Shown here piece by piece: positions 3,591 through 55,000 of a stretch of 64,000 nt of DNA. A program made the translations under genes and the position numbers. Origin of the DNA: Trichoplax sp. H2 (Eukaryota); assembly GCA_003344405.1 (NCBI GenBank), contig NOWV01000146.1, positions 62,001 through 126,000 of the forward strand, given 5' to 3'. The notes below the pieces were generated by a model. The model ran no database searches. It was not told where the DNA came from and saw only the letters and a program-made list of their open reading frames with translations. The stretch's first letter is position 1, and each line of letters opens with the position of its first letter.

Positions 3591-4305
3591 TTTACCGTAT
3601 TTGCTTCTCAGTTGAAGACCGTGCTTACTTATTTTCTTTGCAATTCTGTAACTAAATTAAAAATCTAAAATTATCTGTTGATAAAGTTCATCTTTAGCTA
3701 TTGGCAACTACTTCTGCGCCTCTGTCATTATCTCGAAGTCTTGCATCTATAAATAGATGTGCAATAAGATTTTCATTTTAACGGCATCATTCATATTCAG
3801 TTTTTATCGAATTAAGCAGTTGAGGTAAAAGTAAAGTAAGGCATTTAGGAGTTACTCCTTATGTCATGATACAATTATTGGAAAGATGAAAGCCTTGGAC
3901 GTTACCCGGAAACTGTATACCACTTCATAATGATTATATTGGCTTGATGTTAAGTTAATTAGATGAATAATTAGATATGTGACGTGAATGCAATCCTATT
4001 TCTATAATCGATTATAATTATACGGATATGAGTGTCTTTCACCCCGAGGTTGCAACACCAAAATTAGCAAGATTTTTTCCTTTAAAGTAGTCTTACCTAT
4101 CTAAACCACTATCTCCAGGCACTCTTTCTTTAATCTACCCAAACCTAGGATCGAGTCTTAGACGATAATGACGTTAAGAATGAAAACCTTATTGTAAAAA
4201 CTGTTTTACTCAATGTCCGGCTGAACTTACAGTATAACCTACAATTTACAACCAACCGTGATCGACTAACTTTATCAACTGCGAGGCGTTCTACGTACAA
4301 TATAG

Positions 4306-4680
4306 CCGCATCAATTTGCCTGGTGCAAAGCACTAATAAATTAATAGCCAAGTCTACATATTTGGTATAGTAAGAATCACAATGTACTTTTCTATGACAT
4401 TGGATATTTGTTGATGAATAGCTAGGTGTATACCGCACCAATTTGCCTGGTGCAAGGCAATACTAAATTAATAGCCAAGTCTACTTAGTATAGTAAGAAT
4501 CACAATATACTTTTCTATGACATTGGATATTTGTTGATGAATAGCTAGGTATATACCGCACCAATTTGCCTGGTACAAAGCAATAATAAATAAATTAATA
4601 GCCAAGTCTACTTACTTAGTATAGTAAGAATCACAATGTACTTTTCTATGACATTGGATATTTGTTGATGAATAGCTAGT
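4306..4680. repeat. Tandem repeat, 3 copies of a ~125-bp unit
   Basis: Unit ccgca(t/c)caatttgcctggtgcaaagc...gacattggatatttgttgatgaatagctag starts at 4306, 4433 and 4556 with small indels. Confidence 0.95.
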
Positions 4681-4904
4681 GTTAACATACGATTTATCAC
4701 TTATCCAAACTCTAATATGGATGAGACAATAATTCATTCATTCATGTCGTAGTGTCTGCAATACAAGCGTAAGCGAGCTATTACGCTGGAAAGCAATGCG
4801 CTTATACTGCAATACATCATGGTCTACACGATGGAGTCGAGAAGCCTTATGGCCAGATTTATGTTTGGCTATAGTTCTCTTTCAGTGGCTAAGTTAGAAT
4901 TGAA

Positions 4905-5357
4905 TCAAGCTTATCCTACTCTAAATCCCGACTTCAAGTGCAATTGAAAGCAACCCAGTTCCATGGCTGATCGAGCTTATCCTACTCTAAATCCCAACTT
5001 CAAGTGCACTTTAAAGCAACCCAATTCTATGGCTGATCGAGCTTATCCTACTCTAAATCTCGACTTCAAGTGCAATTGAAAGCAACCCAATTCTATGGCT
5101 GATCGAGCTTATCCTACTCTAAATCCCGACTTCAAGTGCGCTTTAAAGCAACCCAGTTCTATGGCTGATCGAGCTTATCCTACTCTAAATCCCGACTTCA
5201 AGTGCAATTGAAAGCAACCCAGTTCTATGGCTGATCGAGCTTATCCTACTCTAAATCCCAACTTCAAGTGCGCTTTAAAGCAACCCAGTTCCATGGCCGA
5301 TCGAGCTTATCCTACTCTAAATCCCAACTTCAAGCGCAATTGAAAGCAATCCAATTC
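4905..5357. repeat. 66-bp minisatellite, ~7 copies, with an alternating two-unit (132-bp) structure
   Basis: Unit tcgagcttatcctactctaaatccc...gcaacccagttc(c/t)atggctga starts at 4905, 4971, 5037, 5103, 5169, 5235, 5301. Odd units carry caattgaaag and even units c(a/g)ctttaaag. Confidence 0.97.
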
Positions 5358-5415
5358 GATAGCTGTTCGTCGCTCGTTGAACACGTGATTCGTACCTCAA
5401 TGGCCGATGCTCTGC

Positions 5416-5527
5416 TACAGTGTACAGTACGGTACAATTCATACTGTATGAATAGACTGTACCTTACAGTGTACAGTACGCTTGTACAGTACAGCACAAG
5501 ATGTACTGTACAAATAGATTGTACTGT
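5416..5527. promoter_or_regulatory. CAGTA/TACTG pentamer patch just upstream of the permease ATG
   Basis: Dense gtacagtac/tactgtac words ending ~50 bp before ATG 5580. The same words occur at other 5' ends in the window. Function is inferred. Confidence 0.55.
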
Positions 5528-5579: not shown

Positions 5580-8500
5580 ATGGCGTCGTCGCTGGATGAC
5601 TTCCAGGACGATTTGGATTTTCAATCCAACCATGACGATTATGGACACTCTTCTAAATTATCCAGAGCCTTGCTTTATCTACAAATCTGTAAGCTAACGT
5701 AAACCACTTCTTGTTAGGCTAATTCATTCTACCTCAAATTGTATAGCAAAGTACAGTAGTGCCATCGACAGCTGTTACTCGACTTTGAATACCTGATGCT
5801 AATGGCCCAAGTCCATCATGACTGTGTGCAATATTCTCTTCATGAATGATATTAATGAATATTCAAAAATCACTTGTTTTACGTCTATCGGTAATATTGC
5901 TTGCATACGTAGTGATATTCGTTATTAAAAAGGATTAAATGAATCCAAGTTGTTTTCATCTAAAATCGACATATACAGTACTGTATACCGCTACTCCCAC
6001 TAGGATGATTCGCAATAATAATGATAATAATAAACGAGTAATACGTATTACTTTGCTACCATATTGATCGCTTGCAGACTACCAACTAATTCAATTTCAG
6101 TCACGCTGATCATTCTGATAATTTTATTCCGTTGATACACGGATAAATAGAAAGATAGGGGAATAGTGGTTGTCAATGTTGGATCGATCAAGGTCATTCT
6201 TGCTTTATTTTGCATACCCGTACGATCTTTTGTGATGGATGTCTTACTTCTGTTTTAGATTTTGTTACTATTGCTACAATCCTTGGAACTGGAATTTTAG
6301 GTATGGATAATTATCAATCAGTATATGAAATGTTATTAGGCAACTCCATATCGTCTCTATTATACAGTATATTAGAATACTGTTTTGCTAAGAGTGAAAA
6401 TTTCACTGAAATAATTTTACCCAATATGCTAACGCAAATAGTTCAATTCATATGTCTGCTTATAATCATCATTGAATTAGAATGGTATATATAGAATCAA
6501 CCCATACGTACGAGTAGAATAGATTATCGTAGGAAATATGAAAATCGCGATTCAATGTTTAACTACAGTCATCCAGGAATTGTCGTAACATCAAATCCAT
6601 TATATTGTTGATGTTGTTTCTACGATGATATGATAGACTGTAATGCACACATGGATAATAATGAATTATTAGACGAGAGTTGTCATCAAAACTGAATCGT
6701 TTACTCCTAATATAAAACTCCATCTCTAAACTGGATTCTAATGTATCATGGTAGGTTTACCGGTAACATTGTCGCGTTCTGGGATGGGTCCATTTACTGT
6801 TGTTTTTATATTTGGTTTCTTTATGCAAGTATGTATGAGAATCAATCAATCAATAATTCACATTGTTTCATGTTCAATAATCCTTCCTGTGTTATGCAGT
6901 GTTTTCATGCCGTAGCGCGAACGTCAATGAGTAATATCGACAATTGAACTTTCATTCCAGGTCTTATTAATTTACTTTTTTACAATCCTGTTGCAAAAAG
7001 CATTTGCAATTAAAAATTTATATGGCGGCATCAATGATAAGGTAAGCTTGATTGTTATCGTAATGTGTAACTTAGTATTGGTTTTTAATCCTAGAAGAAA
7101 AAAATTCTCCATGACTCAATATCGCCATGTTCATTCTGTTATTGTAAATATCACTTTATGCCATCATCAAAATGTTCTTTACGAGCTCATCTGTTGCAAT
7201 CTTATCTGTAGCTTGTTTCCACAACGAATAGCTGACAAGATAGGATAGGATTAATTGTGATTAAGTATAATGGAGTGTTATCAATGGTCACGATCAATAG
7301 TGCCAACCTGAATGCATAATTGTACTACATTTCATTCCAAGGATCCTGATGTTTTACTGTCGTACTTCTATAATGTTTTTAATAGTCACGGTAGGAACTG
7401 ATGACTTGAGATTTTACAAGCAATCCCGAAATAGTGATCATAATAGAATCACTACGTTTCTTGATTCGTAACACTCTTCTAACCTTACCGTCTTCAGTAT
7501 GCGTAGTATCGACGTCCTAATCAGCTTCGTTTAAAATTCCTAGATAAGACAAGTTTAATGGCATCGGTCGGACATCCTAATGACCTATATTTAAATTTTC
7601 TTATTATAATTAATTATGGATGAGATTCTTTATTAACTTCTTTACATTCATTCAGTACAATGTTGCCCCTGACTTGGAAATACTGTATTAATGATGTTGT
7701 CTCGAAGAAATGAGTTAACTTCGTATTCGGAAATGCATCTGTTCTATTCGCTATTGAACAGCATCATTGCAGAAAATAGAATAAAATCAATGTCAACTTG
7801 CCTGCATGTATAAAATTAGTGTAAAATGTTGGAAATCATGAGCTAGTTGTAGTCAACGTTATAAATTTGGCTAATGCTTGACCGTCTTACGTATGAAGTA
7901 AAAGTACGGTGGTTATCAGTACCATTTAAAAAACATTATGAAATGTGGATAATGTCGTACAGTAGTGACATGTTTTATGTGCCTAAATTTTTTTTCGCTT
8001 CAATATTTAATAAATTGAGATAAGCTTAAATAATCATAACAGCTATACTAGTAAAAACTGTAAGTGTTAGCATTGAATAATGTTTGTGTAAGTACTCATT
8101 ATTGTACTTTTATACGCATTTTAGCAATGAATCGAATGCTACAGTATTATTACTTATTTTGAAATGTTTACTGACTCAGTTACGTATATATGAGTATATA
8201 CTTTTCATTTGACAAATCAGAACTGAGTGATGAAATGCATATATTTAGGATCTTGATAATGAAAGTTTGCCGCTACATCCAGTTCCGATCGCGTCGCAAG
8301 ATAATGAGGAAGAAAACGGTTAGGAAGATTTCATAGTTATCTTGAGTAATTACAAGGTAATAGAAACTGGTGATAAGTAAGTAACAGTTATTTCTTTGTT
8401 TATTAATGATGTTTACAGAAGATTTTGTTACTGGTAAAGTTATACAACCTCTGGATTTGAGTGAAAGAACTTACCCTGATTTACACATGATGGGCGAACT

Positions 8501-10972
8501 ATTTTTACCTTGTTTTGCGCGACAGTTGTTTGACCTATGTACAGTCTTGCTTTTGTAAGTAATTATTAACTCAGAATGCTGTAGCCGATATCTCACTTAT
8601 TAAATTCTGCCATTAAAATAATAAGTCGCTTGTTTCAAATCGAGTAGACTAATAATATGCCGTACAGTATTATGCACGTATAAAGTATACTTGTATATCT
8701 TTCTATTTATAACGTTTATGCATACGATATTTAATTATATGTTTTCTGGTAAATCTTCCTATAAAGTGTATCATTGCTCATTAGCTATGCATTGGCTGGT
8801 AGTGAAGCATATGCAGAAATTATTGGCGTTAGGTAAGTTTTGCTATCCTCAAATTAAGTGGCGAAAGTGATTAAGTTTTAGTTATAGCAAATCGACACTA
8901 AAAATGTAATATGATTTCTTTTGGTTATAGGCATGTCTTTGTTATTCCTTTTTTTTGTTGGATTTGCACTTTATTAATTATTTTCGCCCAAAAAATCATT
9001 CAACCCATGGTTTCTATTCTTACGTTAGCTAAAGGTGGCCTACTTATTGGAACGGTAAGTGTCTGAAGTAGAACTCGGACATATGCATCCCTATGTATCA
9101 GTTTCTTTGGACGTCTACGCTTACTCTGATTGATGGATATTTTACAAGTTATATTGAACATGATCTTTGTTATTCTATGATTTCTTTAAAAGGTCTTTGT
9201 TACATTCTACGTTGGTACACAAGTTAATCAAGATAGCCATACTAAATGGAAATACATAGGGTCTCCATTTCTGATGGGTACAGTTGCCGTAGGTAAGAAA
9301 TGCTGTATTACTGATCAAGCTGTATTTGGGAAAAACGATTAAAAATAGTCAATGTTTTTCAGGTGGTATAATAAATGTCATGCCAATGATGTTTAGTAAA
9401 ATAGAACATAATAGGAGTCAGGTATTGCATGTTATGTAAATGAACATTTTTACTCCTCAACGGTTAGGACGGTTACATATTTATTTACCTTTACCATCAT
9501 AATCAGGTCAAAGGATTTTTAAATTCTATCCTGCTTGGCTTATTAACATGTGTAATACTAAATATTGCTTGGTAAGAATTTATTTGTGTAACTGTATTTT
9601 ACTAAGATCACAGGTTATGAGCAATTCAATAATTTAGCGTTGCTAACGTTTTCAGGTGTTATTCCATTTTATCAATTGTGCCACAGAGATGCACTGACAT
9701 ACAGGGTGGCGATTTAATATTCAATGACACTAATGGTATTATCCATTGTAATGTCTCATTAGCGTGGTATGTTTCTTCTTCGATTATAACGATATGAGAT
9801 CAGTAACATTTTATTTGTAAGTTTTTCATCTAAAACATAATCTATCATTAATAAGGTCCAAGCGTAATGGTGAAATCTCAACTATCCCTTTGACAAGAGT
9901 ATGGAGATATTAATTTATACAAAAAAATTACGGGAATTCATTTATAATAATTCTATTGCTGCAGAATTTGTTTTCGTAACTGTAGTTAAATGAGACGTAA
10001 TAGCATGCTAAATTTTGTTCTAACAAAATCTATTACTCTAACTGTACTGTACTCTTTTAGATCATAAGAAGTGATTATATATCATACGATTGGGTTGCTT
10101 GGCTGGTCGAATTCTTTATTATGATTAGTATTACTGTTTCATTTTTAACAATAGGATCGGCTTATAGACATATGCGTAAGTTATATAACTGATTACCGCG
10201 GATTATCCATCTTCTCACGATATTATTAGCGCAAACTAAATGTGTATAATTATTTTGTTGTCTAGTTGAAGGAGTACTCAATTCGTTCACGGTCTCAACA
10301 AAGAGTTCGTTTTCTTTTAGAATTAATCAAGGTTACGGTCAACTTGTCAACCGTAAATGGTTAGTTAAGCACGGTTACTTACGTTCTAGACATATTTTAG
10401 TTTATATTCAATGGCTTGACTCTGTATAGTAAACAGTATGTCATTAAGCATCAAATCGACAATCGATGCTATTTCTAGAAGTATCTAATTTGATCGTTTG
10501 CTTATTACGATAGCACCATCGAATTGTCTGTATACTTCTTAGCTTTTGGTATCATCTTCGCCATTGCTATGATGGACCCTAGGGTGAGAATACTTGCTAT
10601 TCAGCTAAAATTCACTTAAAAGTTGGGATTTCTTTAATCATGTTTTTAAATAGGGATTCGTAACGATTCTCGACAAAGCAGCCTCGTTACTAATGAATTT
10701 GCAAGCTGGCCTTTTCATTACATTCATGATTCATAGAGCTCAGACTGGAGGTTACAAGTAAGTTGATATAGTATTTTATCATTATTCGGACAATACTTTC
10801 TCAACAAGGTTTTAATTTAATTTATTCTTTCTTCTTGTACTGATTCAGAAATTTACCCATTCCTGTCAAAATGAATGGCTATTTGTATTATTGTAGTTAC
10901 ATTATGACATTTTATTTTATATTTGCCGTCGTTTATGACGTCGTCATAACAGCAGTTCATGCTCTGAAATGA
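5580..10972 (+). CDS. Multi-pass amino-acid transporter (APC superfamily; Aa_trans / Trp-Tyr permease-like), ~16 exons
   Basis: Exons 5580-5688, 6259-6300, 6755-~6828, 6961-7041 ... 10849-10972 (TGA 10970-10972) splice in frame with GT-AG. The protein has YFVTIATILGTGILGLPVTLSRSG (TM1 signature), VSLLISYALAGSEAYAEI, GEISTIPLT, ISITVSFLTIGSA and many hydrophobic segments. Confidence 0.85.
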
Positions 10973-11829: not shown

Positions 11830-14800
11830 TTAAGATTCAATGTCTTCAACCAATGCTTGCACCTGAGCACAAAAAGTGAATAAAAGTCAACCTAACTGAT
11901 AGCAATGACGTCGTCAACAGTCTCAAATACAGTCATGATAAATCACCGATATACGCGTATTATCTTCCTATTTTTATACTTACTAAGGCATCACTAGATA
12001 TTTCTCGCCCTAATATATCTAAGCAAATAAAGAATAGGCATTGACATAAAAGTGGCTGCCAACTTAATAAAATGGTTATTATCAAGATCCAAAGTTATAT
12101 TCAACAGTCATCTATATCAGGTACCCAGAGTAAATTTACCTTCAACCATTAACTTAGGCATTTTTCCTCCTCCATAAGCTAATGCTTTACGACGATAATT
12201 CTCACCACTAACACTAAGAAGTACGTTAAAAAATTATAAAAGTTTATTACAATGTCGATCCTGCGATCGGAGAGATTAGCCGATTAGCTAGCAACAAATC
12301 CACCCGACGTACTATTCAATATAATACCTCGAAAATGGATTCTCCTTGAAACATTCTGTCCATATCATAGAAGCAATTGCTCGGCTCCAAATGTAAGAGT
12401 AATACCTTGCTCCATAATGGCCAAAATGCCCAAATCGTAAATGTGGAGCCTACAAATTACATTCCAAATAGTGTTTAAATTTGCAATGCTTTTGTCTCAG
12501 TTAGCTAACGATCAATTCATAAACCCAAGCGCTCTTACCGCTCCTTTGACGTAAGGAATCGCAGAGTACTCTTCAAGAATTTCGTTCACTATGTTATTTA
12601 TATTCTATAATGTGCGTAACACGATCATAATATGCATAAAATTACAAGAGGAACTAATTTATGAGTTACTGTATGTCGAGCTTACTCCATCTGATGGATA
12701 ATGACAATGCAGTGTCAGGTCGATTATAGCTAAGTTCAGATGATGTTGTAAATCCTGTTAAATCGTATAATTGATCAAAATCGAATCGTTAGTAAAAATA
12801 AGATCGAGATACTACGTAGAAATATAACATCTCTAAGTAAAATGGCTAGGCGTATAGTACTTAGATAATTATGATTACCAGCGCAGTAAAACATTTTTGC
12901 TCGGCGATATAATCCTTAATGACATTATCAGGCAACATCTATTCGTTTTGGCATTTACATTTCGAATATCAATATAACGTGAATAAAACGAATGTTTTTT
13001 ACGGATAGACTAAGAAATAAGATATGCGTAAAGTACCATTCCTGTTTCATGATGTCGTCCAATTGCTGCTAAAACCTAGGATATACAAACATAAAGTGTG
13101 CTAATATATTAATATGGCTAAATAAACTAAAGTATTGCCATTAGTTACCCTATGATCAGAGGCAAAACGCTCCATTAATACCGATGGAACTTCTGCAAAA
13201 TCTATAGCGCAGCGAGTGCCTGTCAGCATAAAAATTTGTAAAATAACAGCTTCAAAGCAAGGCAATGATCTAATAAAGGCCAACAAGGAAGAGAATTGCT
13301 GTACCGGTAACATGTTGATATTTTGTTCTCGCGAACATTGCTGCCAATTGCAATATAATAAAAGAGGAAAATAATTAGCTACATTCTATTACATCTTACA
13401 GAAATCTTATTTCGATAAATAACTCAGAAAAGCTTACAGTGCATTGCGTGTCCCATTTCATGGAATAAATTCGACATGGACTGCATACATAGAGACAAAA
13501 CCTGATCAAAACTGAAGTAACTCATTTCCTATAACATCCAATATCACGATTAGATTTCAAAATTTCTTACCGAATAGTTAAGAAAGCTTGGTGTTGAAGT
13601 GCTCGGAGGTCTAGATTAAATAACCACATATGCCAGCAGAAAAATACTTATTCTAGTATTGTGCTTTATAATTTAAAGGTACACTGATTGATTAGCTTTG
13701 AATAACAGAAAAACTTACGCAAAGTTGCAAGACAAAACAGCAACAGGTAGCTAAAAACATTAACAATTTGATCTAATTTAATCATCCAATTAATAGTTCA
13801 AAACTATCGTCACAGCTTATTCTTACCTGATATGATCCATCTTCTAGTAACTTTCCTCCAGAAATAGTATGATGTGAATCCTGTATAATGTTAACCAAGA
13901 ACGTTAAAATTGTCCTTATGTTCGAGCATAATATCATTTAGTAACTTACCGAAGACGAAAACTTCTTGTAGCGTGCGTATAAATCGCAATATAAATACCC
14001 TAAAACATCACCGTCTCCATCGTAGACGCCCTTCATGGGTAAAGGAAATTAGTTATATTTACTATTTTTCCTTACAAATCACAGATAAAGCACCAATTAC
14101 GGAGCACTTAAAAAGAATTACCAGTTTAACAATCTTGTCGGCCCACAGCTATTAACAGATATCCAAAAAGTACATGCTCGGTAAATTTAAATTGTCATTT
14201 CAAACTATAAAATTATCAAAAGAGTACATTCTATTTAAAAATTTTATATACCTCATTTCGGCCACATGGCACTGGTACCAATGACACATTGTAAATTTTC
14301 TTGAACAATGTATTTAGTCCCTTTACCAAACAAGAGAATATAAATAGACGCAACGGGATGGGAGTAAAAAACAATATAATATTTATTTAGGATACTGGAG
14401 TACCTCCATGCAAGTGCCAACCGAAAAATATTCGGATACTGAACCACCTCCTGCTGGAAGTCTATTGAGAAATAACGAGTACTGCATGAATATTCATTAT
14501 TACTATAGCTGTATAGTTGAAAATGTATATTCACCTAATTTTTTTATTTGCTAAAGCAAAATGGTTTACATCCCAAGGTTTAATATCCTATAAGTGTAAG
14601 GGTTGCAAGATCTTTCAAATTAGTAAAATTCTATATAGTTCTGATATTTTACTAATTTCGTTTTCTGTAGAATTTAATATTGAAATCCAAGAGCCCACCT
14701 TGGCTAGAGGATATTCCAATTGCTTCATTCTGTAATCAATATTTAAAAAAAGTTATGCAATACATTAGTACTGCAATATAAGTGAATAAAGGAAAACTTA

Positions 14801-17800
14801 ATGCTCTTAAGATATTCGAACACAGTATACAACGTAGAACAGTAACAAATTATAGATAATCTTACATCACAAAGTCAAAATTATCCACAAATAAATTTGT
14901 ATAAGGTAAAATTTGTACATTATAGAAAGATATTTAAATAATACCTTAACATGTCCTCAAGTTCCTTTTCTACTCTATAAAGGAATAGGCAATTAAGATT
15001 AGAATATGAACCGCAGTAACAAAAGCTCATAATGATGAATTACTGCAACGTTACACAAATTCTAAATTCGTTAAATTACATATTCACATTACCTATGTTT
15101 AACTGCATTTGCAGCCGACTTTAAGAAATTTAACGCGTTTTCTAATAAATTTCAATTATAATTGAAATATAATCCTCTCAGTCATGCATAGAATTGTGTT
15201 AGCCAATACTCTGGTTAAAGAATAAATGTGACTCTCACCAGGTGTTTGAACCATAGTATCAAGAAGGATTTGATGTGCAAACGATTTAAAACTAATATGT
15301 ACAACAGAAATATATAAACGAATAATTATGGTAGGCATGAAGTAAGAATTATAGAAATTTAGCTTTATGTATTCATTGAATGATTCTAATCCAACCAACC
15401 CTGCAAGTTGCGACATATTCTGTCTGACTTTTAACAGGGACTTTAAGGTATCATCTTGCCGATAATTAAAGCTATTATAAGCTCTATAGGCGAACTCTCT
15501 TAACTGTAGTTAAAGTAGTTCCAATCAGCCAGTTACGAAATAATACTGTACTCGGACGCAATGGATACTAATAAGAAATGTATAAACTTACATCTTCTTG
15601 TGGGCTATCATGATAGGTATATGTAACTTCAACATAATTGGAAATACTTCTAAAACTGTTAGAACAAAAATAGAATAAATTCACAAAGCAAGTTAAGCAA
15701 GCTGGATAAGGTTTAACACAGATACAGTGCAATGATGAGATTGTAGCAATTCTGCATTAATAATACTTTCGCGTCAAATTTAGTTTTCTTTGCCACTAGT
15801 ATACGTACAGTATATAGCATGTGCGTTAACATAACCGATACATTTATATATACCTGTTGATTAAATGTTTCGGACACCGATCTGCAGATACTAAAGTTGG
15901 TGCTACAGAAAATAATATTCAATTATACTATCAGCTGGAATGATTAAATTATTTACCGATAAAACAATAAATTTGAGAAGATAGATTATTCTCACCATGA
16001 CACTGTTGAATAAACTGATCACATAATGAGACAATTTCCATATCTAATTTCACTTTTTTCTCTCTCTAGCAGGTACAAGACAATTAATACAAGATGTGAT
16101 ATAAGGACTACTTTGCCGTAATGGGCTATTATATTGGTAAACTTTACAACTTACTGTAGCATCGTCCAAGTGAACACCACTTTGTTCAAAATCATTTAAT
16201 AATAATCTTGCTACAATCCTAAATTGATATAATGATATATTAAATGCTAACATTAGCGTAATCATTTTAGTGCCAATTCCCGTAAGGAATTCTCTCAGCC
16301 AATGATTAACGATAAATCATAATCTTTATTAGGTTTGCTCAATGATTAATTTAGAATTGATTTTCTTCTATAAAAGCAGATCAATTTTTAAATCGCACTT
16401 TGTATCTTCTTTCATCGTATTAACAATGGTTTTATTATCGACAACTTCTTTTAAGACATTGTAAAGGCCCACATTGGTATTTAACTTTGACACTAGCGAT
16501 AGCATGGTCATGCAAGTACTTTCAGCAGCACTAACAAATGCAGGTTGAGAGTGTGACAGCCTGATAAAATTTGCCTATATACGCGTAAAATATAACAAGT
16601 TCAATTAGTTACGTGTAACGTTGTTGAATATTTATGGAAAAAACTAGCGTCAGACACCAATACAAAAGTTCCATTAGTTAAGTGTAATCTTGTTGATTAT
16701 TTACGCCAAAGAAATAGTCTCAGATACATATTTAACTTATGAGCTATGCAGTCAATCAATTTGAGGCATGTTTTAAAGTTTATTAAGCTGAGTGTATCCC
16801 TTGTAGAAGTGGGTAGTTTACTACCGAATGACTTACGAGGTCAGCAAGTAGGCATATTTCATTTGATAGCTGATCCAGAAGATCGACACTACGCCCTGAT
16901 GGAGGTTCGGTGAGGATCATCTGAACGAACCTAAAGTGTAAAGTATTACCTAATTGAAGTAATCATAGGATAGTATATCCGTAGTAATACTAGCAATATG
17001 ATACTATAATATCTTTTCCAGCTGGAAAAAATGTGTATTTATTACTTTAATTATTACATAATTAAATTAATCACAGGATAGTATATCCGTGGTAATACTA
17101 ACTAGCAATATGATCCTATAATATCTTTTCCAGCTAGAAAAAATGTGTATTTATGACTTTAATTATTACATAATTGAATTAATCATAGGATAGTATATCC
17201 GTAGTAATACTAGCAATATGATGCTATATCTTTTCCAACTGGAAAAAATGTGTATTTATTACTTTAATTATTTTCGCTATAGAATAAATAATCATCTTTA
17301 CTGTACGTTACCTCTCACATTCTTGCAACGAGTGCTTTTGCCATTTTGCAAAGTCCGACGGTCTTTGCAATTTATTAACTCCTAATAATCCCTAGTAACA
17401 GCACACAATGATATCAATTCTAATGGTTGAAATTGATTGAGGGTATGACATTATTTGTATACGTTTGCGATAATACGAGTTAAGCAACATTGATTCAATT
17501 GGTCCATGATTATGTTTTGCAATTTTGCAACAGTTGTAAATGGAATAAAAAAAAGAGCACAATTGCAGTTTGGATTAAGATTTTTTTATAATCTCTTTCC
17601 TTCATGTACTGTACAGTCTATTAACACATTGTATACGTCCATTTAATTGCAGCGGATTGATGATATGCTTCTCTTGTGTATTGGTGACGGGAATAGTAAA
17701 CAGACCATCTAATTTTATACATACGCATATACTGGTAGAAGCAATAAGAAACTATTTTCTCCTGCCTACGCGTCGATTGCTTCGGTATGGAAATGCGTCT

Positions 17801-18707: not shown

Positions 18708-18847
18708 GAGTACAGTACAGTGCTTAAGACAAGACTCGTTGTACTATACGCTACACGAGCATCGAGCGGTCTTCTTCTAGTAGTCCGTATAGAGTATAGT
18801 ACAGTACTGTGTTGTGATAGTACGGTCAGTACTGTACTATACTGTGC
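18708..18847. promoter_or_regulatory. CAGTA/TACTG pentamer patch upstream of MIPEP
   Basis: gagtacagtacagtg...agtacagtactgtg...cagtactgtactatactgtg lies directly 5' of the putative first (5'UTR) exon of MIPEP. Confidence 0.55.
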
Positions 18848-19611: not shown

Positions 19612-19808
19612 GTCACGTGGGTCAGTACAGTACTGTACAGTACAGTACAGTATTGTTCTCGGTAGAAGTCCACATTCAGGCTGCAGTACTGTACAGTACT
19701 GTACAGTACAGTAAAGTACAATACAATGTACTGTACTGCACAGTGCACAGCGCAGAGTCTCGGCCAACCAATCCACAGCTCGCATTCATCCCCACATGGT
19801 CACGTGAC
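19612..19808 (+). promoter_or_regulatory. NALCN proximal promoter: E-boxes, CCAAT box and CAGTA patch
   Basis: GTCACGTGG 19612-19620, CAGTA/TACTG array ~19622-19750, CCAAT 19768-19772, palindromic GTCACGTGAC 19799-19808. ATG at 19943. Confidence 0.6.
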
Positions 19809-19942: not shown

Positions 19943-35711
<15,769 letters not shown>

Positions 35712-40700: not shown

Positions 40701-43700
40701 CCAAAAAATAATAAAGTTAAATTTTAAACTACCGAATAGTCCGTAAGTTCATAAAGAAAGGTGTGATTTCAATAACGGAAAAAAAATTTGTAAACCTGAC
40801 AACAATTTCAAATTATTTAACTATTGGTGCTAATAATGTCGTCCAGAGAAGCAAGAAATAGAATGAGATTGTAGGAGCAATATATCACAGCATACGAAAC
40901 TTTACACCCTGGAAGTGTGCGAGCAGTACATAAACAATACACCTGGGCACATTTGGTTTTACTACAACGTAACATCAAATATTATTTTCTTAATAAGCAC
41001 TATAGCAAGCAATGATTACGAACACATAAGTTTTAATTTGTAGTTTACCCATATTGCCGTATTAACTGATCCCCTGCCACATTTACCTAACCGTTAGATG
41101 ATTATGTGCAAATAAATGAAATACAGTACGAAACTACTACCTTTGTCGAGTTCATGCAAGCAATGGCACAATTAATACATTAATAGCACAATGCTATTAT
41201 AAATCCAATATAAAAGTATTATAATCGTATTAATTCATTACAAAGCTTCAATATTGTATTAAAATTATCTAACTCACAATTCTGTATCCATTATCTAATT
41301 AAAATTAATAAGCATTAAAGTGATACTTGATGAGTAAAATTACAGATATGCTAACACCTCTATCATACCTTCTGTTTAACAGATTATCATTGTTACCGGT
41401 ATCACAATAAGTCCATAAATATTCTTAAAAAGAATACAGTTACTTAATTTTATAATCAATTACGTGAGCCTATTCCTTACTTTGATTGCCCACGTTGCCC
41501 CAATCTTCTATTTTTGACCTGTGGATATATCCGACGTATGATCTAAAGTGCGAGATATGGTAATTTTAATGTAAATAGAAATAAAAATGAGTATAACTAC
41601 TCATCAGCATATACTAAAATTATGCCATTTCTGGCAGTCCATATCATTTCTAATGAATTTCTGAAGAATTAAATATTGAAATATTCACAATTTCATCGCT
41701 GAATAAGAATTTCGCACTTTGCACTACACGCTTAAAATTTTTGCATTTTAACGAAAATTGAGCAGATGCATATCACTAAAATCAATCAACTCTTCATATT
41801 TCTATCAGTAAGTTGTGATCCCGATAATACAGTATCGTTAAGTTTCGGTGCAAATTGATTCAAATGTATCAGTCCAAAAAGGTAACAAACGGTAAGATAT
41901 AATTGATATCAGAAATAAATTATGATCTAATATTAAGATCACAGCTAAATTAATTTTAGAAGATTTTCAGATGATTGTTACACACGTGTTTAAATAGCAA
42001 GAAAGAAGGTATTTGTACGCCATATGTGCTCATTTCAAGAATTAGTACACGAAGCATGTCTATCTATTGTAGTAATTCTAAATACGGTGCAATGTAAGCA
42101 AATAGTCAACTATTCTGATTAAAGGTGAGAACTAATCGATCATTAGTGATATACCATTCTGCTAAAAATTGACCTATCCATAGTGACTTAAATTAAAAAC
42201 CGACTTTATAACTACAATTAATTTTTGCAGAATAAGATACAACGAAGCTAAAATAGAAGATCTCCGATTATTTTATGAACACAACTTTTCAAACGGGTGA
42301 ATGATCAGTGATTGTAGTAATTGATCTGCTACTTACTTTTCCAAAACTTGCAGCATTAGCAGAAGTTAGGTCATTCTTTTGACAAAAATCCAAGTAATGA
42401 TTGTAGATTGCACTACGCGCCAAGCTTACGCCATCTGCTACTTCGTAATTTTCCATTAGCCTAATTATTGAATTATATACCAGTAACTTGTTAGTCGTCA
42501 TTATGAGACAGAATGAGCATCAAAAAATCCTAGCAGGTGATTCAGTATAGCAATTCAACGCCTTCCATCACACAATCCAGTATACAGCTAATTTATGAGA
42601 TGACCACAGTGTTTCTAATACTGATTACGTCATGTAACTAGCAAAGCATGTCAAAAATTGTCACTTTCTCCATTGCTGAGTGCACGGCACTTTATACCAA
42701 TATGATAGAGTTATATTTTCATAGGATACTATGCGTACGACGAATCTACTTCGAGTGAATACGTAATTATCTCGAATAATTGCAGGCTTCGCTACTTACC
42801 ACTTAGCTGTTACAGGGCATAATAGTTTATTTGACATTGGAGACTGATCTGCATCACCGGTTGGCGAATCTAAATACACAATTACGTATCAAATAAAATT
42901 GTTCAAAAACGGAAGTTTTAATTTAATGTTACTATGTAGTCCAACGAATTTGGTGATTCATTAAGCATTAGCGAATCATAATCTATTATTACATGCCACG
43001 GATACGATAATAAATACTAGAAAAAAATTGAATTTTTTAACCATTATTAAAATTACAAAGTATCTAAGCCAGTAATTTACGGGATATAAGCGGATAACAA
43101 ATCAGCAATCACCCGATTATATGCGATTGTATATCAATTATATGACAGTAATTGGAACGGAGATTTACTCTTCTTATATAATCTTAAAAACTATAATCAT
43201 CTATGCTGATGATGCTGCAATAAATCTATTCCTTTAATGCCATTAGTATGATATTAGTTATTGAGAAATGGCAATTATTTCTCTATCTAAAGCTATAGAA
43301 GGCTAAAGCATAATTTATATGTAATTATTAGGTAGACCTTTTCTCTCATTCTTGTAGTAATCTACTATACATTGTGCAATATGTCCAATCTAGCTACTCT
43401 GCTGATAAATTTTCACATACTAGGTAGGATTGGATATTTGGAGCGTTATATCTGTGCTTGATTGTCAGTAGTATAATGCCTACTGCTAAGAAATTAAATT
43501 ATTATGTTACTTTATAACCTGTGCCATAAGACTACTTGAAGGGCAAATTGTCTCTTTCCTTATTAGCTTATGTATAAAAATGAACTAACTGAATTTTTAC
43601 TTGTGCCAATTTGGCACGAGGCCGCGATAAGTTGGCTCATGGCAGCCACTTACTCATCTATAATATCAGGTATTTAGAAAGTAAACTTTCTTTGTACTTA

Positions 43701-48411: not shown

Positions 48412-50644
<2,233 letters not shown>

Positions 50645-50883
50645 ACTTGAGGAAACGATGGCGTAGCACGAAGTCTTGAGCGATTTGCAGTTTTGATGTT
50701 TGCAGAGTTGCAGAACGAATTGATGATGGGAAGCAATGTTGTCCACTGACTATTTCACCATATCCATATAGAGTTAATAGAAAAAGCTGTTTTTCTCTGA
50801 CCTCTATGGTACAGTATACAGTAGGACCGTATTACCAGGTTGCACAGCTTACTGATTGGTTGTTTCCAGCCGGTATCAATACG

Positions 50884-51125
50884 TACGGTACAGTACAGTA
50901 CAGTACAGTACTGTACACTGTACAGAACAGTAGAAACACAGTGCAGAAGTACAGTACTGTACTGTACACTGTGCACAAAATAATACAGTACAGTACAGTA
51001 CAGTACAGTACAATACTGTACGCTACGATGGCTGGTCCCCGTGACCCGTACTACAGTACTGTACACTGTACAGAACAGTAGAAACACAGTGCAGAAGTAC
51101 AGTACTGTACACTGTACACTGTGCA
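50884..51125. promoter_or_regulatory. CAGTA/TACTG pentamer patch in the SAT/POLA1 bidirectional promoter (long version; short version ~51746-51836)
   Basis: (cagta)n runs and cagtactg/tgtaca palindromes, next to a reverse CCAAT box (ctgattggtt ~50852). Confidence 0.6.
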
Positions 51126-51462
51126 CAAAATAATGTGTAAAATAAATGTCGTATAGAGCCTGAAAAGCCTGTATGCTACATTCGATATCTCTGCCTTAAG
51201 TTACGACATCTGTTTTACACAGGGGGCCTTCACTGTCAGACATGTCAACAACTAAAACAGGTAGTGGCTGAAGCCTGACATTCATTCGCCTTTCAAGTCA
51301 TCCAACACCAACCTTTTGGCGCCAAATTTATTTTCTTCCCTCCCCACTACCGACGACATCACCAGGATGATGGTGACCTCTGAAAAACAAAATGAGACCG
51401 TAGACGATTCCAATAATACAGGTAATAACATAAAATAAGAAGGAGAAAAGGATGCTAAAATA

Positions 51463-51536
51463 NNNNNNNNNNNNNNNNNNNNNNNNNNNNNNNNNNNNNN
51501 NNNNNNNNNNNNNNNNNNNNNNNNNNNNNNNNNNNN
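51463..51536. other. Assembly gap (74 N)
   Basis: Run of n characters. Confidence 1.
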
Positions 51537-52023
51537 AGTCTTGAGCGATTTGCAGTTTTGATGTTTGCAGAGTTGCAGAACGAATTGATGATGGGAAGCA
51601 ATGTTGTCCACTGACTATTCCACTATATCCATAAAGAGTTAATAGAAAAAGCTGTTTTTCTCTGACCTCTATGGTACAGTATACAGTAGGACCGTATTAC
51701 CAGGTTGCACAGCTTACTGATTGGTTGTTTCCGGCCGGTATCAATACGTACGGTACAGTACAGTACTGTACCGTACTGTACTGTACACTGTACAGAACAG
51801 TAGAAACACAGTGCAGAAGTACTGTACACTGTGCACAAAATAATGTGTAAAATAAATGTCGTATAGAGCATGAAAAGCCTGTATGCTACATTGGATATCA
51901 CTGCCTTAACTTACGACATCTATTTTACACAGGGGCCTGCACTGTCAGACATGTAAACAACTAAAACAGGTAGTGGCTGAAGCCTGACATTCATTCGCCT
52001 TTCAAGTCATCCAACACCAACCT

Positions 52024-52035
52024 TTTGGCGCCAAA
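52024..52035. promoter_or_regulatory. Palindromic E2F site upstream of POLA1
   Basis: TTTGGCGCCAAA ends ~40 bp before ATG 52077 and is identical in the duplicate copy at 51315-51326. It resembles the E2F consensus TTTSSCGC on both strands. Confidence 0.7.
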
Positions 52036-52076
52036 TTTATTTTTCTTCCCTCCTCACTACCGACGACATCACCAGG

Positions 52077-55000
52077 ATGATGGTGACCTCTGAAAAACAA
52101 AATGAGACCGTAGACGATTCCAATAATACAGGTAATAACATAAAATAAGAAGGAGAAAAGGATGCTAAAATAGTTCTCCCTATAAGATCATTCACTGTCA
52201 TTTATTTAAACCATTTGGACGGTATAGCAAGTAGGCGGTCATTGAGAGCCAAAACCAAATCCAAAGCCGATCGCGCAATAGAAAGCTTGAGGTAAGCTAG
52301 TATTGTGATTAGCATTTTATTCTTATCATGGCGCAGAATTCTATCATTTTGCAATCAGTTAAACTTTTTGCATGGCAGATGAATTGATATTGCCACACAG
52401 AGCCGAATAGAAACTCTGTTGTCAATGTGATTCATTGAAATTTTTGCCATCTTACGATCATGTTGAGCAGCTGCATACTCCAGACCTGAGAGTCACTCTT
52501 GGGTCTCTAGCGTAGTCAAGCGGACTCGTCCAATTGCCATGGCAATATTCGGTTCACACTGGCGATAAACTGCCACACTGGCTGGCATCCTATTGCCAGT
52601 CAAATATCAAAGGAGCTCTGCAACGATTAAATTCAACCTAGCTTGTATCATGACTACAATTTTATTTTGATATTTGCATATAATTTATGTCCCGCAACCA
52701 GTTAAGCTTCTTGGATCATACATTGAATCAACATTGCCATGCAGACCTAAATGGAAGCTTTGTAGCCAGCGTTATGTAGTAGATTTTTGCAATCTTACCA
52801 TGATGCAAAGCAGCTACAAAGGTGCACTTGTCAAATGGTTACGTTCTGTGCCTACTGGACGTAGAATTGGCATTCGATGTCATTATGTTACCAATCAAAT
52901 GTCCAATAAATTCCACTGACAATCTAATTTAAGCTAGCCTTGCATTTTATCCTTACCCTTGTTCATGATTTCCATTATCCTGCGATCAGAACTTCTCGGA
53001 TAACAACTGAATAGAAGCTCTGCTATCAGCTTATACATTAAGCCTTTCAACCTGACGTTGATGTTAAGCAGCTGTGTATAGCACTATGGACTACTAAATA
53101 TGCCCTCATATTGAGGGGCATAAGTATTTAGTGCTCCATGATTGTACGTATGCGTGTTCGTCGAATCGCTGTAACGATGTTCCCACCTAGCACAACTTTA
53201 ACATGCTCTCGATAACATCATGTTGCCAACAAATCGCTATCTAATGAACTCTATTGACGAGCTAATTTAAGAAAATTGATGTTTTACATTAATGTATATT
53301 TACTTTCAATAAAATTTATTGATTGATCCTACAACAGCTATTGATATTACACATGTTCTATTATAATTTAGGAAAGCCAAAGAAGATGGTGGACGTTATA
53401 AATACCAAGTAAGTTTATAATATCCTTATAATCCAATGCGATAACAACAAATCAACATTGATATTAGAAATACCTCATGTACATCAAGTAAATGTTTAGT
53501 CTAAAGATCAAAACAGCATCATTGATATCCAGTACCTCTATACACCACTCCAACATTACATACTCTTACCATATAGTTGGCCGATCAACTTGTAAACGGA
53601 GCGTGATTAGTATTTGGCAAGTACTGTAGAATGTTGAATAAAATCTTATCAATGGCTTGAATCCAACAGTGAACTTATTGGTAAATGAACAAAATCGCAT
53701 TATACGAGCCAAATTACAATGATAGTACAGCACTGTATGCCGATATACTATATAAAATAAGAATAGATCAGCATGTAAAAGACTTGATGCCTTTAAATAT
53801 ACCCTCAATAGCTTATATTCGACTTGAATACTCTACCTGCATTTCTCGTCACCCTTATGTATAGGTACAAAATTCGGTTAAATTATAGCCTAGCACTCAC
53901 CTAACAGTTACATAAAGTAAGAATTAAGTGAATTCAAGTGAATTGACCGAAGTCATCATGGTTTATTATATTACCGGCGTAATTACAGCAATGGGAATGC
54001 TTTCATTATTAGTAGGGTCTAGTTGCGTTAAAAATGTCAAAGTTAACTATTTTTATTATCGTAGGTTAATGTACCATCCAATAGTGTTAAATTAACAGAT
54101 TTGATGTCAGCTAGTACAGCGTGACGTTATCTACCAACTGTGTAAATAAACATTTTGTATACCAATTACTCCGATATCCAGGATAGAAGTAGCTTAATTT
54201 ACTAAATTTTAAAGGTATGATTGTTAATGCTTATTGTAAATTTTAATGCGATCGTAGTTGGAGAAACATTCAAACATCTATGAAGAAGTTGATGAAGTAG
54301 AATACTCACGAATTGTAACTTCAAGACAAGAAGATGAATGGATTGTTGATGATGGTAAAAAAGCTAATGCTGGAAAGCGTAAAAATTAAATTTCTATTGT
54401 AAAGCTCATGTCATAGGAGAAAGAGAATCGGATAGTATTTTCATTAACCATTTACGCAGACTACTGTACATTGTATGTAGAAGATACACTATGATGTCTT
54501 ATTTTTCTCTTTTTCATGCTACAATCAATATCACAACGTCATAATTGCTGTCCAGATTTAGTAATCAGTGATACCCGGAGCATGTGTACAAACCCATGTG
54601 AACTAATCTATTATTTTTAATAGATATATTTTATTCGATTATTGTATTAACAAATGGGATTCCACCATGACTCTATAATAACCTTTGCTTGATTTGTACT
54701 TGACAGTTCAATTATAACTTTAAACAGTATATTAACAGGCATTCTATTATTATTTAATTAGAGTCTCGGTTATAATGTTACTGCAGGCGTGAGCATTTAC
54801 ATGAGATAATGTTACATCTTCTTTACAGCTTTTACTATCGTAGTATACTGTCATTTCGTTTTGCTACTTTACTGATTTATATGTATATCTCATTGCAATG
54901 CAGATGGCACTGGCTATGCTGACCATGGAAGAGAAGTTTTCGACGATGACTTTGATCAAGAAGATACCGAAATGGATTCAGCTAATAAATATAGCGGAGG

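What the first reader, a model, noticed from the sequence alone, without database searches (positions are those of the whole stretch)
5416..5527. CAGTA/TACTG pentamer patches mark gene starts: possible lineage-specific promoter element
Patches of 90-240 bp built from CAGTA, TACTG and the palindromes CAGTACTG/TGTACA sit within ~50-250 bp of the start codons of the permease (5416-5527), MIPEP (18708-18847), NALCN (19622-19750) and the SAT/POLA1 pair (50884-51125, 51746-51836). Elsewhere I see only isolated words, and there is no patch at the RFX promoter. A 5-bp period is half a helical turn, and the mixed orientations allow hairpins. Candidates are a multimeric factor-binding platform, a nucleosome-positioning signal, or a CpG-island-like promoter mark. 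This is the best candidate here for an undescribed system; function is inference and I cannot confirm novelty.
Basis: partly seen in the sequence, partly recalled or inferred. Interest (0 to 1): 0.75.

Follow-up and report, generated by a model that had tools for sequence, protein, structure and literature searches.

The report
Known Trichoplax ACAGT promoter microsatellite arrays
The patches are real runs of a five-base repeat sitting just upstream of genes in the placozoan Trichoplax adhaerens, but this repeat and its link to gene starts were published in 2010, and what it does is still unknown.

Summary
The window is Trichoplax adhaerens DNA. The patches are tandem arrays of a pentamer, GTACN, equivalently the palindromic unit ACWGT. 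GTAC-to-GTAC spacing peaks at 5, 10, 15 and 20 bp. Arrays end 53-243 bp upstream of the start codons of five of the six genes I could identify. RFX has none.

Two corrections apply. The two "SAT/POLA1" patches are one locus written twice across an assembly gap. The MIPEP patch is weak.

It is not undescribed. Wang et al. 2010 (PMC2871265) reported (ACAGT)n as the dominant Trichoplax microsatellite: 5,624 arrays, 54% within 1 kb upstream of genes. Their table appears to list the NALCN patch. A 2026 neural-network study of Micro-C data recovered "repeating ACAGT" (PMC12817080).

I found no transposon hallmarks and no CpG-island character.

Best reading, which is inference: a multivalent, orientation-free promoter element for an unidentified factor, turning over by slippage. 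Novelty: already known. Function: open.

The parts
5416..5527 (.). Patch P1: degenerate GTACN/ACWGT array upstream of the amino acid transporter gene (ATG 5580, + strand)
   Evidence: 4 GTACWGTAC hits. 9 ACWGT in 111 bp. Internal 42-nt direct repeat and a 23-nt inverted repeat. DNA fold z = -4.76, 0 of 200 shuffles as stable. Gene start from P0124 = TRIADDRAFT_51262 mapped to 5580-10969.
18708..18847 (.). Patch P2: weak, decayed array upstream of the inferred MIPEP start (ATG 18533, - strand)
   Evidence: 3 GTACWGTAC hits. 17-nt perfect inverted repeat 18793-18809 / 18827-18843. Fold z = -2.59. Below the patch rule and the TRF threshold. Peptidase_M3 exons at 12315-13385 on the - strand. The N-terminal exon is inferred, not confirmed (uninformative).
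19622..19750 (.). Patch P3: two nearly pure pentamer arrays (19623-19652, 19684-19725) upstream of NALCN (ATG 19943, + strand)
   Evidence: 9 GTACWGTAC hits. TRF period 5, 6.0 and 8.4 copies. 19-nt perfect inverted repeat 19625-19643 / 19686-19704. Fold z = -4.77. Ion_trans exons from 19925 onward. Probably the row 'scaffold_1 145402-145429, gene 18273, voltage gated channel like 1' in Wang et al. additional file 5.
50884..51125 (.). Patch P4, copy A: largest array block, centred in the divergent SAT (ATG 50644, -) / putative POLA1 exon 1 (ATG 51367, +) intergenic region
   Evidence: 15 GTACWGTAC hits. TRF period 5, 27.8 copies over 50883-51021. Internal 148-bp duplication, 50904-50962 = 51052-51110 at 100%. 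Fold z = -4.25 for 50884-51030.
51746..51836 (.). Patch P4, copy B: the same locus repeated after the assembly gap, 155 bp shorter
   Evidence: 6 GTACWGTAC hits. The alignment of 50672-51462 with 51537-52175 shows indels of 143 and 12 bp, both inside the array, and about 2% substitutions in the flanks. TRF period 5, 10.6 copies.
50810..50829 (.). Small two-unit outlier (TACAGTA twice), closer to the SAT start. Duplicated at 51675-51694
   Evidence: TACWGTA clusters 50810-50823 and 51675-51688.
51463..51536 (.). Assembly gap (74 N) separating the two copies of the SAT/POLA1 promoter
   Evidence: N run. Duplicated flanks.
5382..5387 (.). CACGTG E-box 34 bp upstream of P1
   Evidence: 4 CACGTG in the window, 3 of them within 150 bp of a patch (3.5% of the window).
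19614..19619 (.). CACGTG E-box abutting P3
   Evidence: sequence.
19799..19808 (.). Palindromic GTCACGTGAC E-box between P3 and the NALCN start
   Evidence: (I18).
50853..50861 (-). NF-Y-type CCAAT box (reads CTGATTGGTTG on the + strand) beside P4. Duplicated at 51718
   Evidence: 8 matches to RRCCAATSR in the window, 2 beside patches (the two copies of one site). The factor name is recalled, not tested.

Best explanation
Identity (well supported): the patches are promoter-proximal copies of the Trichoplax adhaerens (ACAGT)n pentanucleotide microsatellite.
- They are best written as tandem GTACN units, or as the self-complementary pentamer ACWGT repeated head to tail.
- Because the unit is its own reverse complement apart from the central A/T, 'mixed orientation' is only the central base toggling. 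Inverted repeats then arise automatically.

Mechanism (inferred, not shown): the arrays are kept at many constitutively active promoters as a multivalent, orientation-independent cis-element.
- A row of palindromic sites would be read by a not-yet-identified placozoan DNA-binding protein, plausibly a dimer.
- That protein would hold the promoter open or insulated, and may contribute to promoter-promoter contacts.
- The sites sit beside ordinary promoter elements (CACGTG and CCAAT boxes).
- The arrays themselves turn over like any microsatellite. They expand and contract in 5-, 10- and roughly 150-bp steps by slippage or unequal exchange, then decay by point mutation. So presence and copy number would be selected, not exact sequence.

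My confidence in the identity is about 0.95 and in the mechanism about 0.4. The figure below is for the whole statement.
For: Identity:
- The organism is T. adhaerens: 100% identity to TRIADDRAFT_49541 and TRIADDRAFT_51262, both on a 13.26-Mb contig.
- Period-5 arrays are called by TRF.
- GTAC-GTAC spacing counts are 46, 28, 19 and 13 at 5, 10, 15 and 20 bp, against 0-9 at other spacings.
- Of 46 GTACNGTAC, N is A or T in 40 and G or C in 6. Within GTACWGTAC the split is 23 A to 17 T on the + strand.
- Wang et al. 2010 (abstract, passages, supplement file 4 and part 1 of file 5) report 11,697 microsatellites, of which 7,233 are pentanucleotide and 78% of those ACAGT. Counts are 5,624 in the genome and 14 in ESTs. 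They find 54% within 1 kb and 85% within 5 kb upstream of genes.
- In the 92 rows I read, 0 are under 100 bp, 17 under 300 bp and 50 under 1 kb. My own random-placement estimate from their gene count and genome size is 3.3% (<300 bp) and 10.5% (<1 kb).

Promoter context in the window:
- The three independent loci found objectively are all within 250 bp upstream of a start codon.
- 3 of the window's 4 CACGTG lie within 150 bp of a patch.

Chromatin link:
- A CNN trained on T. adhaerens Micro-C data converged on 'repeating motifs ACGG and ACAGT' (PMC12817080, section 61 read whole).
- Kim et al. 2025 describe motif-bearing loop anchors at 2,978 housekeeping-type promoters (passages).
- The cell-type regulator RFX lacks a patch.

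Turnover:
- The two copies of P4 differ by 143-bp and 12-bp indels inside the array, but by only about 2% substitutions outside it.
- Pure arrays are flanked by in-phase decayed units.
Against: - No binding protein is known, and none could be tested here.
- The window gives only four independent loci.
- P1 and P2 are degenerate, so if copy number matters it can be low.
- NALCN is not an obvious housekeeping gene.
- Phase is not kept between neighbouring arrays: the gaps are 41, 36 and 24 bp (read from the coordinates). This argues against a strict helical-phasing requirement.
- The Chimaera evidence is in silico only and amounts to one sentence. Those authors equate the Kim et al. loop-anchor motif with the ACGG repeat, not ACAGT. 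ACGG repeats are absent from the patches (one ACGGACGG, inside a POLA1 exon). So the link between ACAGT arrays and promoter hubs is not established.
- The motif logos in both papers are figures I could not read.
- High length variability is also what a neutral microsatellite would show.
Confidence: 0.45

Rival explanations
1. Intrinsic DNA-structure element with no dedicated protein. The arrays act through their physical properties: very flexible TA and CA/TG steps every 5 bp, which cannot set a single rotational position on a nucleosome. Alternatively, cruciform or hairpin extrusion under transcription-driven negative supercoiling keeps the promoter nucleosome-poor.
For: - All five patches fold as single-stranded DNA far better than shuffles: z = -4.76, -2.59, -4.77, -4.25 and -3.72, with 0, 2, 0, 0 and 0 of 200 shuffles as stable. 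Two control stretches give z = +0.77 and +0.90.
- Perfect inverted repeats of 17-19 nt occur in P2, P3 and P4.
- The spacer base is nearly free (A 23, T 17, G/C 6). That is what one expects if composition and periodicity matter more than a precise site.
- The Chimaera authors note that some of their motifs reflect oligonucleotide bias rather than factor sites, though they say this of GC-rich motifs.
Against: - The hairpin potential follows automatically from a palindromic unit, so it is not independent evidence.
- With three or four W positions per arm, perfect complementarity is expected by chance about 1 time in 8-16 (my estimate).
- Loop lengths of 17-42 nt are unfavourable for cruciform extrusion (established knowledge, not tested here).
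- The strict conservation of G, T, A and C at four of five positions looks more like sequence recognition than a bulk property.
Confidence: 0.2
2. Neutral by-product. ACAGT is simply the slippage-prone repeat this genome happens to generate. It arises or persists preferentially in open, repair-active or recombination-active promoter DNA and has no effect on transcription.
For: - Microsatellite-like behaviour: pure runs flanked by decayed units.
- Large length differences between the two P4 copies are confined to the array.
- Internal duplications of 10, 62 and 148 bp.
- Single TACWGTA words are spread through introns and gene bodies above expectation: 63 singletons (110 hits in all, against 14.5 expected).
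- Nearby DNA is rich in other tandem repeats, with units of 66, 123, 112 and 199 bp.
Against: - A five-fold excess within 1 kb upstream of genes genome-wide: 54% observed against about 10.5% by my estimate.
- The published GO enrichment for translation and protein-modification genes needs a strong regional mutation bias to explain.
- No other eukaryote surveyed has a pentamer as its main microsatellite type, according to Wang et al..
- A sequence-to-contact-map network found the repeat informative.
Confidence: 0.2
3. Transposon remnant. The patches are terminal inverted repeats of Mutator-type DNA transposons, or MITEs derived from them, that insert into or were domesticated at promoters. Kim et al. 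2025 proposed this for the placozoan loop-anchor motif.
For: - Kim et al. report Mutator insertions at GP1 promoters, with the motif lying in the TIR (passages).
- The patches are rich in inverted repeats.
- Variant units GTACG/GTACC (ACGGT-like) occur inside P1 and both copies of P4. This could link the ACAGT and 'ACGG' motifs.
Against: - After masking array units, the four patch regions share only 10-nt chance matches (E about 0.85).
- The only TIR-plus-duplication configurations (6, in P3 and P4; 0 in the control regions drawn from 40 random picks) have 12-14-nt arms and 8-bp 'duplications' that are themselves array units, each with one mismatch.
- No transposase-type Pfam domain appears in the 250 ORFs scanned.
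- Wang et al. found only 6 MuDR fragments and 0.13% TE content by homology.
- Kim et al. annotated TEs with EDTA, per their Methods. EDTA finds TIR elements by structure (my knowledge). Palindromic arrays could therefore be called TIR elements falsely. That last step is my inference.
Confidence: 0.1

Closest known systems
(ACAGT)n microsatellite of Trichoplax adhaerens (Wang, Zhang, Meyer, Bao 2010, Biol Direct 5:18, PMC2871265)
   Same: Same organism, same repeat unit and same position upstream of genes. The published locus table appears to include the NALCN patch. The authors also proposed a transcription-factor-binding role.
   Different: That paper counted only perfect runs over 12 bp. It therefore misses degenerate patches such as P1 and P2. 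It did not note that the unit is palindromic (ACWGT, GTAC every 5 bp). It also measured distances to 2008 gene models that can lack 5' exons, as POLA1 does here. No function was tested.
Repeating ACAGT motif recovered by the Chimaera network from T. adhaerens Micro-C maps (NAR 2026, PMC12817080)
   Same: Same repeat in the same species, reported as affecting predicted contact maps in in-silico insertion tests.
   Different: It gets one sentence and a figure I could not read. The text does not say which pattern (insulation, fountain or loop) it was tied to, and the authors did not follow it up.
Placozoan loop-anchor / GP1 promoter motif in 'Mutator TIRs' (Kim et al. 2025, Nature, PMC12221973)
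   Same: Same genomic niche: promoters of roughly one third of genes, housekeeping-biased, and conserved across four placozoans. It has the same flavour of a short lineage-specific motif.
   Different: The motif letters appear only in figures. The Chimaera authors equate it with an ACGG repeat, which is absent from this window's patches. I found no transposon features here.
GA-repeat promoter elements bound by GAGA factor / CLAMP in Drosophila (recalled, not tested)
   Same: It would work alike: short tandem repeats at promoters giving many sites for a multimerising factor that keeps promoters nucleosome-free and helps long-range contacts.
   Different: Different sequence and different lineage. 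A binding protein is known there and unknown here.
Poly(dA:dT) tracts of yeast promoters and vertebrate CpG islands (recalled)
   Same: Both are composition- or repeat-based marks of constitutive promoters rather than single factor sites.
   Different: The Trichoplax unit has four fixed positions out of five and is not CpG-rich. It is not a homopolymer.

Membership tests
Trichoplax (ACAGT)n promoter-proximal microsatellite (Wang et al. 2010) | Organism is Trichoplax adhaerens | tested here: met
   100% identity to TRIADDRAFT_49541 and TRIADDRAFT_51262, both on a 13,260,704-bp contig.
Trichoplax (ACAGT)n promoter-proximal microsatellite (Wang et al. 2010) | Tandem ACAGT/ACTGT units with a perfect run over 12 bp | tested here: met
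   Met at P3 and at both copies of P4 (TRF period 5; consecutive GTACWGTAC hits). Not met at P1 and P2, which are degenerate relatives of the same repeat.
Trichoplax (ACAGT)n promoter-proximal microsatellite (Wang et al. 2010) | Lies upstream of, and within about 1 kb of, a gene 5' end | tested here: met
   Distances to start codons are 53, 175, 193, 240 and 242 bp. One start is an annotated protein, one has weak PDB support, and three are inferred from ORFs.
Trichoplax (ACAGT)n promoter-proximal microsatellite (Wang et al. 2010) | Present in the published locus list | tested here: inconclusive
   The row scaffold_1 145402-145429 (28 bp), gene 18273 'voltage gated channel like 1', fits P3, whose two arrays each contain a 28-nt run. 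That this name is an old name for NALCN is recalled. I read only part 1 of 53, and name searches for the other genes found nothing.
Mutator/MULE transposon or MITE | Terminal inverted repeats of element-specific sequence shared between copies | tested here: not met
   After masking array units, the patch regions share only 10-nt matches at E about 0.85.
Mutator/MULE transposon or MITE | Target-site duplication of 9-11 bp flanking the TIRs | tested here: not met
   Only 8-bp, one-mismatch pseudo-duplications made of array units. None of 9-11 bp.
Mutator/MULE transposon or MITE | Transposase gene, for autonomous copies | tested here: not met
   No transposase family among the Pfam hits for 125 + 125 ORFs. 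Non-autonomous elements would lack one, so this is weak evidence.
CpG-island-like promoter mark | Local excess of CpG and G+C over the genome background | tested here: not met
   CpG observed/expected is 0.51, 1.07, 0.18, 0.44 and 0.65 in the patches, against 0.93 for the window. GC is 0.38-0.45, as fixed by the unit itself.
Transcription-factor-bound promoter microsatellite (GAGA-factor type) | A sequence-specific protein occupies the repeat in vivo | not testable with these tools
   Needs footprinting, DAP-seq or pull-down. None is reported in the passages read.
Placozoan loop-anchor motif (Kim et al. 2025) | Sequence matches the published motif logo | not testable with these tools
   [quoted passage not shown] 8. 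Two of the six supplementary files are picture PDFs, and the other four hold no match.

The most novel reading that the evidence does not exclude
The ACWGT/GTACN arrays, rather than a transposon, are the true sequence basis of placozoan promoter hubs. On this reading, the 'Mutator TIRs' reported at loop anchors are structure-based mis-annotations of these palindromic arrays and their GTACG/GTACC variants. A placozoan-specific dimeric protein reads GTAC at 5-bp spacing and tethers thousands of housekeeping promoters together. That would be an architectural system analogous to, but independent of, CTCF in vertebrates and CTEP1/2 in ctenophores.
Probability: 0.2. Interest if true: 0.7.

Novelty: already known. 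Interest (0 to 1): 0.3.

Why it matters
An early-branching animal carries the same five-base repeat at thousands of its promoters, and sixteen years after the first report nobody has shown what reads it.

If the arrays are binding platforms, they offer a direct handle (a simple oligonucleotide bait) on a lineage-specific promoter or architectural factor. They also bear on how promoter hubs form without CTCF.

For this scan, however, the finding rediscovers a published feature. What this analysis adds:
- The palindromic-unit description (ACWGT, GTAC every 5 bp).
- Evidence against a transposon origin at these loci.
- The observation that degenerate patches and truncated gene models make the published promoter association an underestimate.

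Tried and rejected
- Literature search by the 9-mer plus 'promoter' returned 72 papers. The 20 listed had unrelated titles, and none was opened.
- 'Trichoplax' plus either 7-mer gave 4 and 2 papers with unrelated titles. None was opened.
- The search that worked combined Trichoplax, pentanucleotide, microsatellite and ACAGT. A follow-up for 2024 onward on placozoan promoter hubs / Mutator found nothing new.
- The Sebe-Pedros 2018 paper on Trichoplax promoters is not held, so it stayed unread.
- The supplement of PMC12817080 could not be read. Two picture-PDF supplements of PMC12221973 could not be read either. The motif logos therefore stayed unseen.
- ncRNA gene hypothesis for the 775 bp between P2 and P3: no Rfam family reached its gathering score and no tRNA was found anywhere in the window.
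- ACGG-repeat motif: absent from the patches.
- TATA boxes: none within 150 bp of any patch.
- Gene identity checks that led nowhere: ORF 6159-6491 found no annotated protein. PDB searches with two presumed MIPEP exons were uninformative. Pfam did not name the transporter; one search did.
- Cross-species comparison and genome-wide density could not be done.
- Helical phasing between arrays was rejected: the gaps of 41, 36 and 24 bp are not multiples of 5.

Full report
**What the window is.** The sequence is 33% G+C and has one 74-N gap. An exon of DNA polymerase alpha (62141-62431) is 100% identical to Trichoplax adhaerens TRIADDRAFT_49541 on a 13.26-Mb contig. The first exon downstream of the first patch is 100% identical to TRIADDRAFT_51262, named by UniRef as an amino acid transporter.

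Pfam scans of 250 stop-to-stop ORFs, plus tblastn, give six genes:
- Amino acid transporter, + strand, 5580-10969.
- M3 peptidase (MIPEP-like), - strand, M3 domain exons at 12315-13385, with the start inferred at 18533.
- NALCN-like channel, + strand, 19943 to about 35700.
- RFX, - strand, DNA-binding exon at 42292-42519.
- GNAT acetyltransferase, - strand, start at 50644. All six PDB matches of its first exon are to residues 3-31 of diamine acetyltransferase 1, though weak (E 0.16-0.63).
- DNA polymerase alpha, + strand.

- GTACAGTA, GTACTGTA and CAGTACTG are 22- to 26-fold over mononucleotide expectation.
- GTACWGTAC occurs 40 times against 0.34 in dinucleotide-preserving shuffles.
- A blind rule (at least 5 ACWGT per 100 bp) recovers four of the five intervals and nothing else. 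It recovers nothing in 200 shuffles.
- Tandem Repeats Finder calls period-5 arrays in P3 and in both P4 copies.
- The MIPEP patch (18708-18847) is a weaker, decayed version.

**What the repeat is.** The distance between successive GTAC tetramers peaks at 5 bp (46 pairs), 10 (28), 15 (19) and 20 (13), against 0-9 at other distances. The fifth base is A or T in 40 of 46 GTACNGTAC and G or C in 6. Among the 40, A and T split 23 to 17 on one strand.

The unit is therefore GTACN. Read in another register it is ACWGT, which is its own reverse complement apart from the centre. This removes the puzzle of "mixed orientations". There is one palindromic unit whose central base toggles, and inverted repeats follow automatically.

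All five patches fold as single-stranded DNA much better than shuffles, and two control stretches do not. I treat this as a consequence of the unit, not as separate evidence for hairpins. Neighbouring arrays are not in 5-bp phase with each other (gaps of 41, 36 and 24 bp).

**Two patches are one.** The stretch 50672-51462 recurs at 51537-52172, immediately across the N gap, at 95-98% identity. In the alignment the flanks differ by about 2% substitutions, while the array differs by a 143-bp and a 12-bp indel. The longer copy carries an internal 148-bp duplication (50904-50962 = 51052-51110).

Either two haplotypes were laid side by side at a gap, or this is a recent tandem duplication. The window cannot decide. 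Either way there are four independent loci, and the array is the most length-variable part of the locus.

**Position relative to genes.** The proximal edges of the arrays lie at the following distances from start codons:

| Gene | Distance | Status of the start |
|---|---|---|
| Amino acid transporter | 53 bp | annotated start, |
| MIPEP | 175 bp | inferred |
| NALCN | 193 bp | inferred |
| SAT | 240 bp | weak PDB support, |
| POLA1 (putative first exon, 51367) | 242 bp | unverified |

- The public POLA1 model begins at 54879. A DNA_pol_alpha_N exon sits at 54258-54386, so the model is 5'-truncated.
- No patch occurs in 42.5-48.4 kb, where the RFX promoter must lie.
- The patches sit among ordinary promoter elements. 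3 of the window's 4 CACGTG are within 150 bp of a patch, which covers 3.5% of the window. A CCAAT box of the RRCCAATSR form lies beside P4. No TATAAA is nearby.
- CpG is not enriched.

**Is it a transposon?** I found no sign of one here.
- With array units masked, the patch regions share only 10-nt chance matches.
- The only TIR-plus-duplication configurations are built from array units themselves.
- No transposase domain appears among the 250 ORFs.
- No RNA family or tRNA lies in the window.

**What is already known.** Wang, Zhang, Meyer and Bao 2010 (PMC2871265) reported the following. I read the abstract, the passages around the motif, supplement file 4 through a search, and part 1 of 53 of file 5.
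- Pentanucleotides are the commonest microsatellite class in T. adhaerens: 7,233 of 11,697.
- 78% of those are ACAGT, with 5,624 loci in the genome and 14 in ESTs.
- 54% lie within 1 kb, and 85% within 5 kb, upstream of the nearest gene.
- Associated genes are enriched for translation and protein modification.
- The authors suggested a transcription-factor-binding role.

Their locus table has a 28-bp array 387.5 bp from gene 18273, "voltage gated channel like 1", on scaffold_1. This fits P3. That the name is an old name for NALCN is my recollection.

In the 92 rows I read, none is closer than 126 bp, 17 are under 300 bp and 50 are under 1 kb. A random-placement estimate from their genome size and gene count gives 3.3% and 10.5%, so the excess is about five-fold. 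That estimate is my own inference.

Two features of this window suggest the published association is an underestimate:
- P1 and P2 are too degenerate to have been counted.
- POLA1's truncated model would put its array more than 3 kb away.

**Later chromatin work.** Kim et al. 2025 (PMC12221973; passages only) describe promoter hubs in placozoans. The 2,978 "GP1" housekeeping-type genes have loop-anchor motifs said to lie in the TIRs of Mutator transposons. TEs were annotated with EDTA. The motif's letters appear only in figures.

[quoted passage not shown] It assigns the former to the transposon motif of Kim et al. and leaves ACAGT without comment.

Searches for the pentamer together with placozoa, and for later work on promoter hubs, found nothing else in the held library.

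**How it most likely works.**
- Shown: identity, periodicity, palindromic unit, promoter-proximal position, length instability, and absence of transposon and CpG-island features at these loci.
- Inferred: that the arrays serve as multivalent, orientation-free sites for an unidentified factor at constitutive promoters, with copy number rather than exact sequence under selection.

The fixed G, T, A and C with a nearly free fifth base, the genome-wide promoter bias, the near-absence from ESTs and the in-silico effect on contact maps favour this reading. The lack of any known protein, the microsatellite-like turnover and the unresolved relation to the published loop-anchor motif count against it.

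The rivals are:
- A purely structural role.
- A neutral repeat favoured by promoter mutational context.
- Transposon remnants.

The first two remain live. The last is the least supported here.

**Verdict.** The promoter interpretation is partly supported. The claim of an undescribed system is not supported. The feature has been in print since 2010, so the novelty class is "already known". The function is still open, which keeps some interest.

Noticed in passing
window 50672-51462 and 51537-52172, gap 51463-51536: About 640-790 bp holding the SAT 5' end, the array and the putative POLA1 exon 1 is present twice, across a 74-N gap. Identity is 95-98%, and the copies differ by 155 bp inside the array. 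It looks like two haplotypes placed in tandem, or a recent duplication.
   Followed up: partly
window 20126-20524: Exact (100% matches) 199-bp tandem duplication, 2.0 copies, inside the first coding region of the NALCN-like gene. It repeats about 65 residues of ORF. It may be an assembly artefact or a real exon duplication.
   Followed up: no
window 4838-5435 and 4300-4679: A 66-bp tandem repeat (7 or more copies, 91% matches) runs directly into patch P1. A 123-bp repeat with 3 copies lies just upstream. Its relation to the promoter is unknown.
   Followed up: no
window 54258-54386 versus 54879: The public POLA1 model (TRIADDRAFT_49541, 1203 aa) starts mapping at 54879, but a DNA_pol_alpha_N exon (Pfam E 8e-10) lies upstream at 54258-54386. 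The model is therefore 5'-truncated.
   Followed up: partly
window 5382, 19614, 19801: Three of the four CACGTG hexamers in 64 kb sit within 150 bp of a patch. One of them is the 10-bp palindrome GTCACGTGAC between P3 and the NALCN start.
   Followed up: partly
whole window: Single TACWGTA words number 63 (110 hits in all, against 14.5 expected for the 7-mer on composition) and are uneven. There are 38 in 0-24.3 kb, 9 in 24.3-46.4 kb, 16 in 46.4-58 kb and 0 in 58-64 kb. They may be decayed arrays around promoters and first introns.
   Followed up: no
window 5427, 50883, 51748 (GTACGGTAC); 51768 (GTACCGTAC): Variant units with G or C as the fifth base occur inside P1 and both P4 copies. They resemble an ACGGT unit and might connect the ACAGT repeat with the 'ACGG' repeat reported for the transposon-associated motif.
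   Followed up: no
whole window: CpG observed/expected is 0.93 over 64 kb, so there is no CpG depletion.
   Followed up: no
window 16944-17272; 22236-22713: Further intronic tandem repeats with units of 112 bp (3 copies) and 191/104 bp (2-2.7 copies) lie in the MIPEP-like and NALCN-like genes.
   Followed up: no
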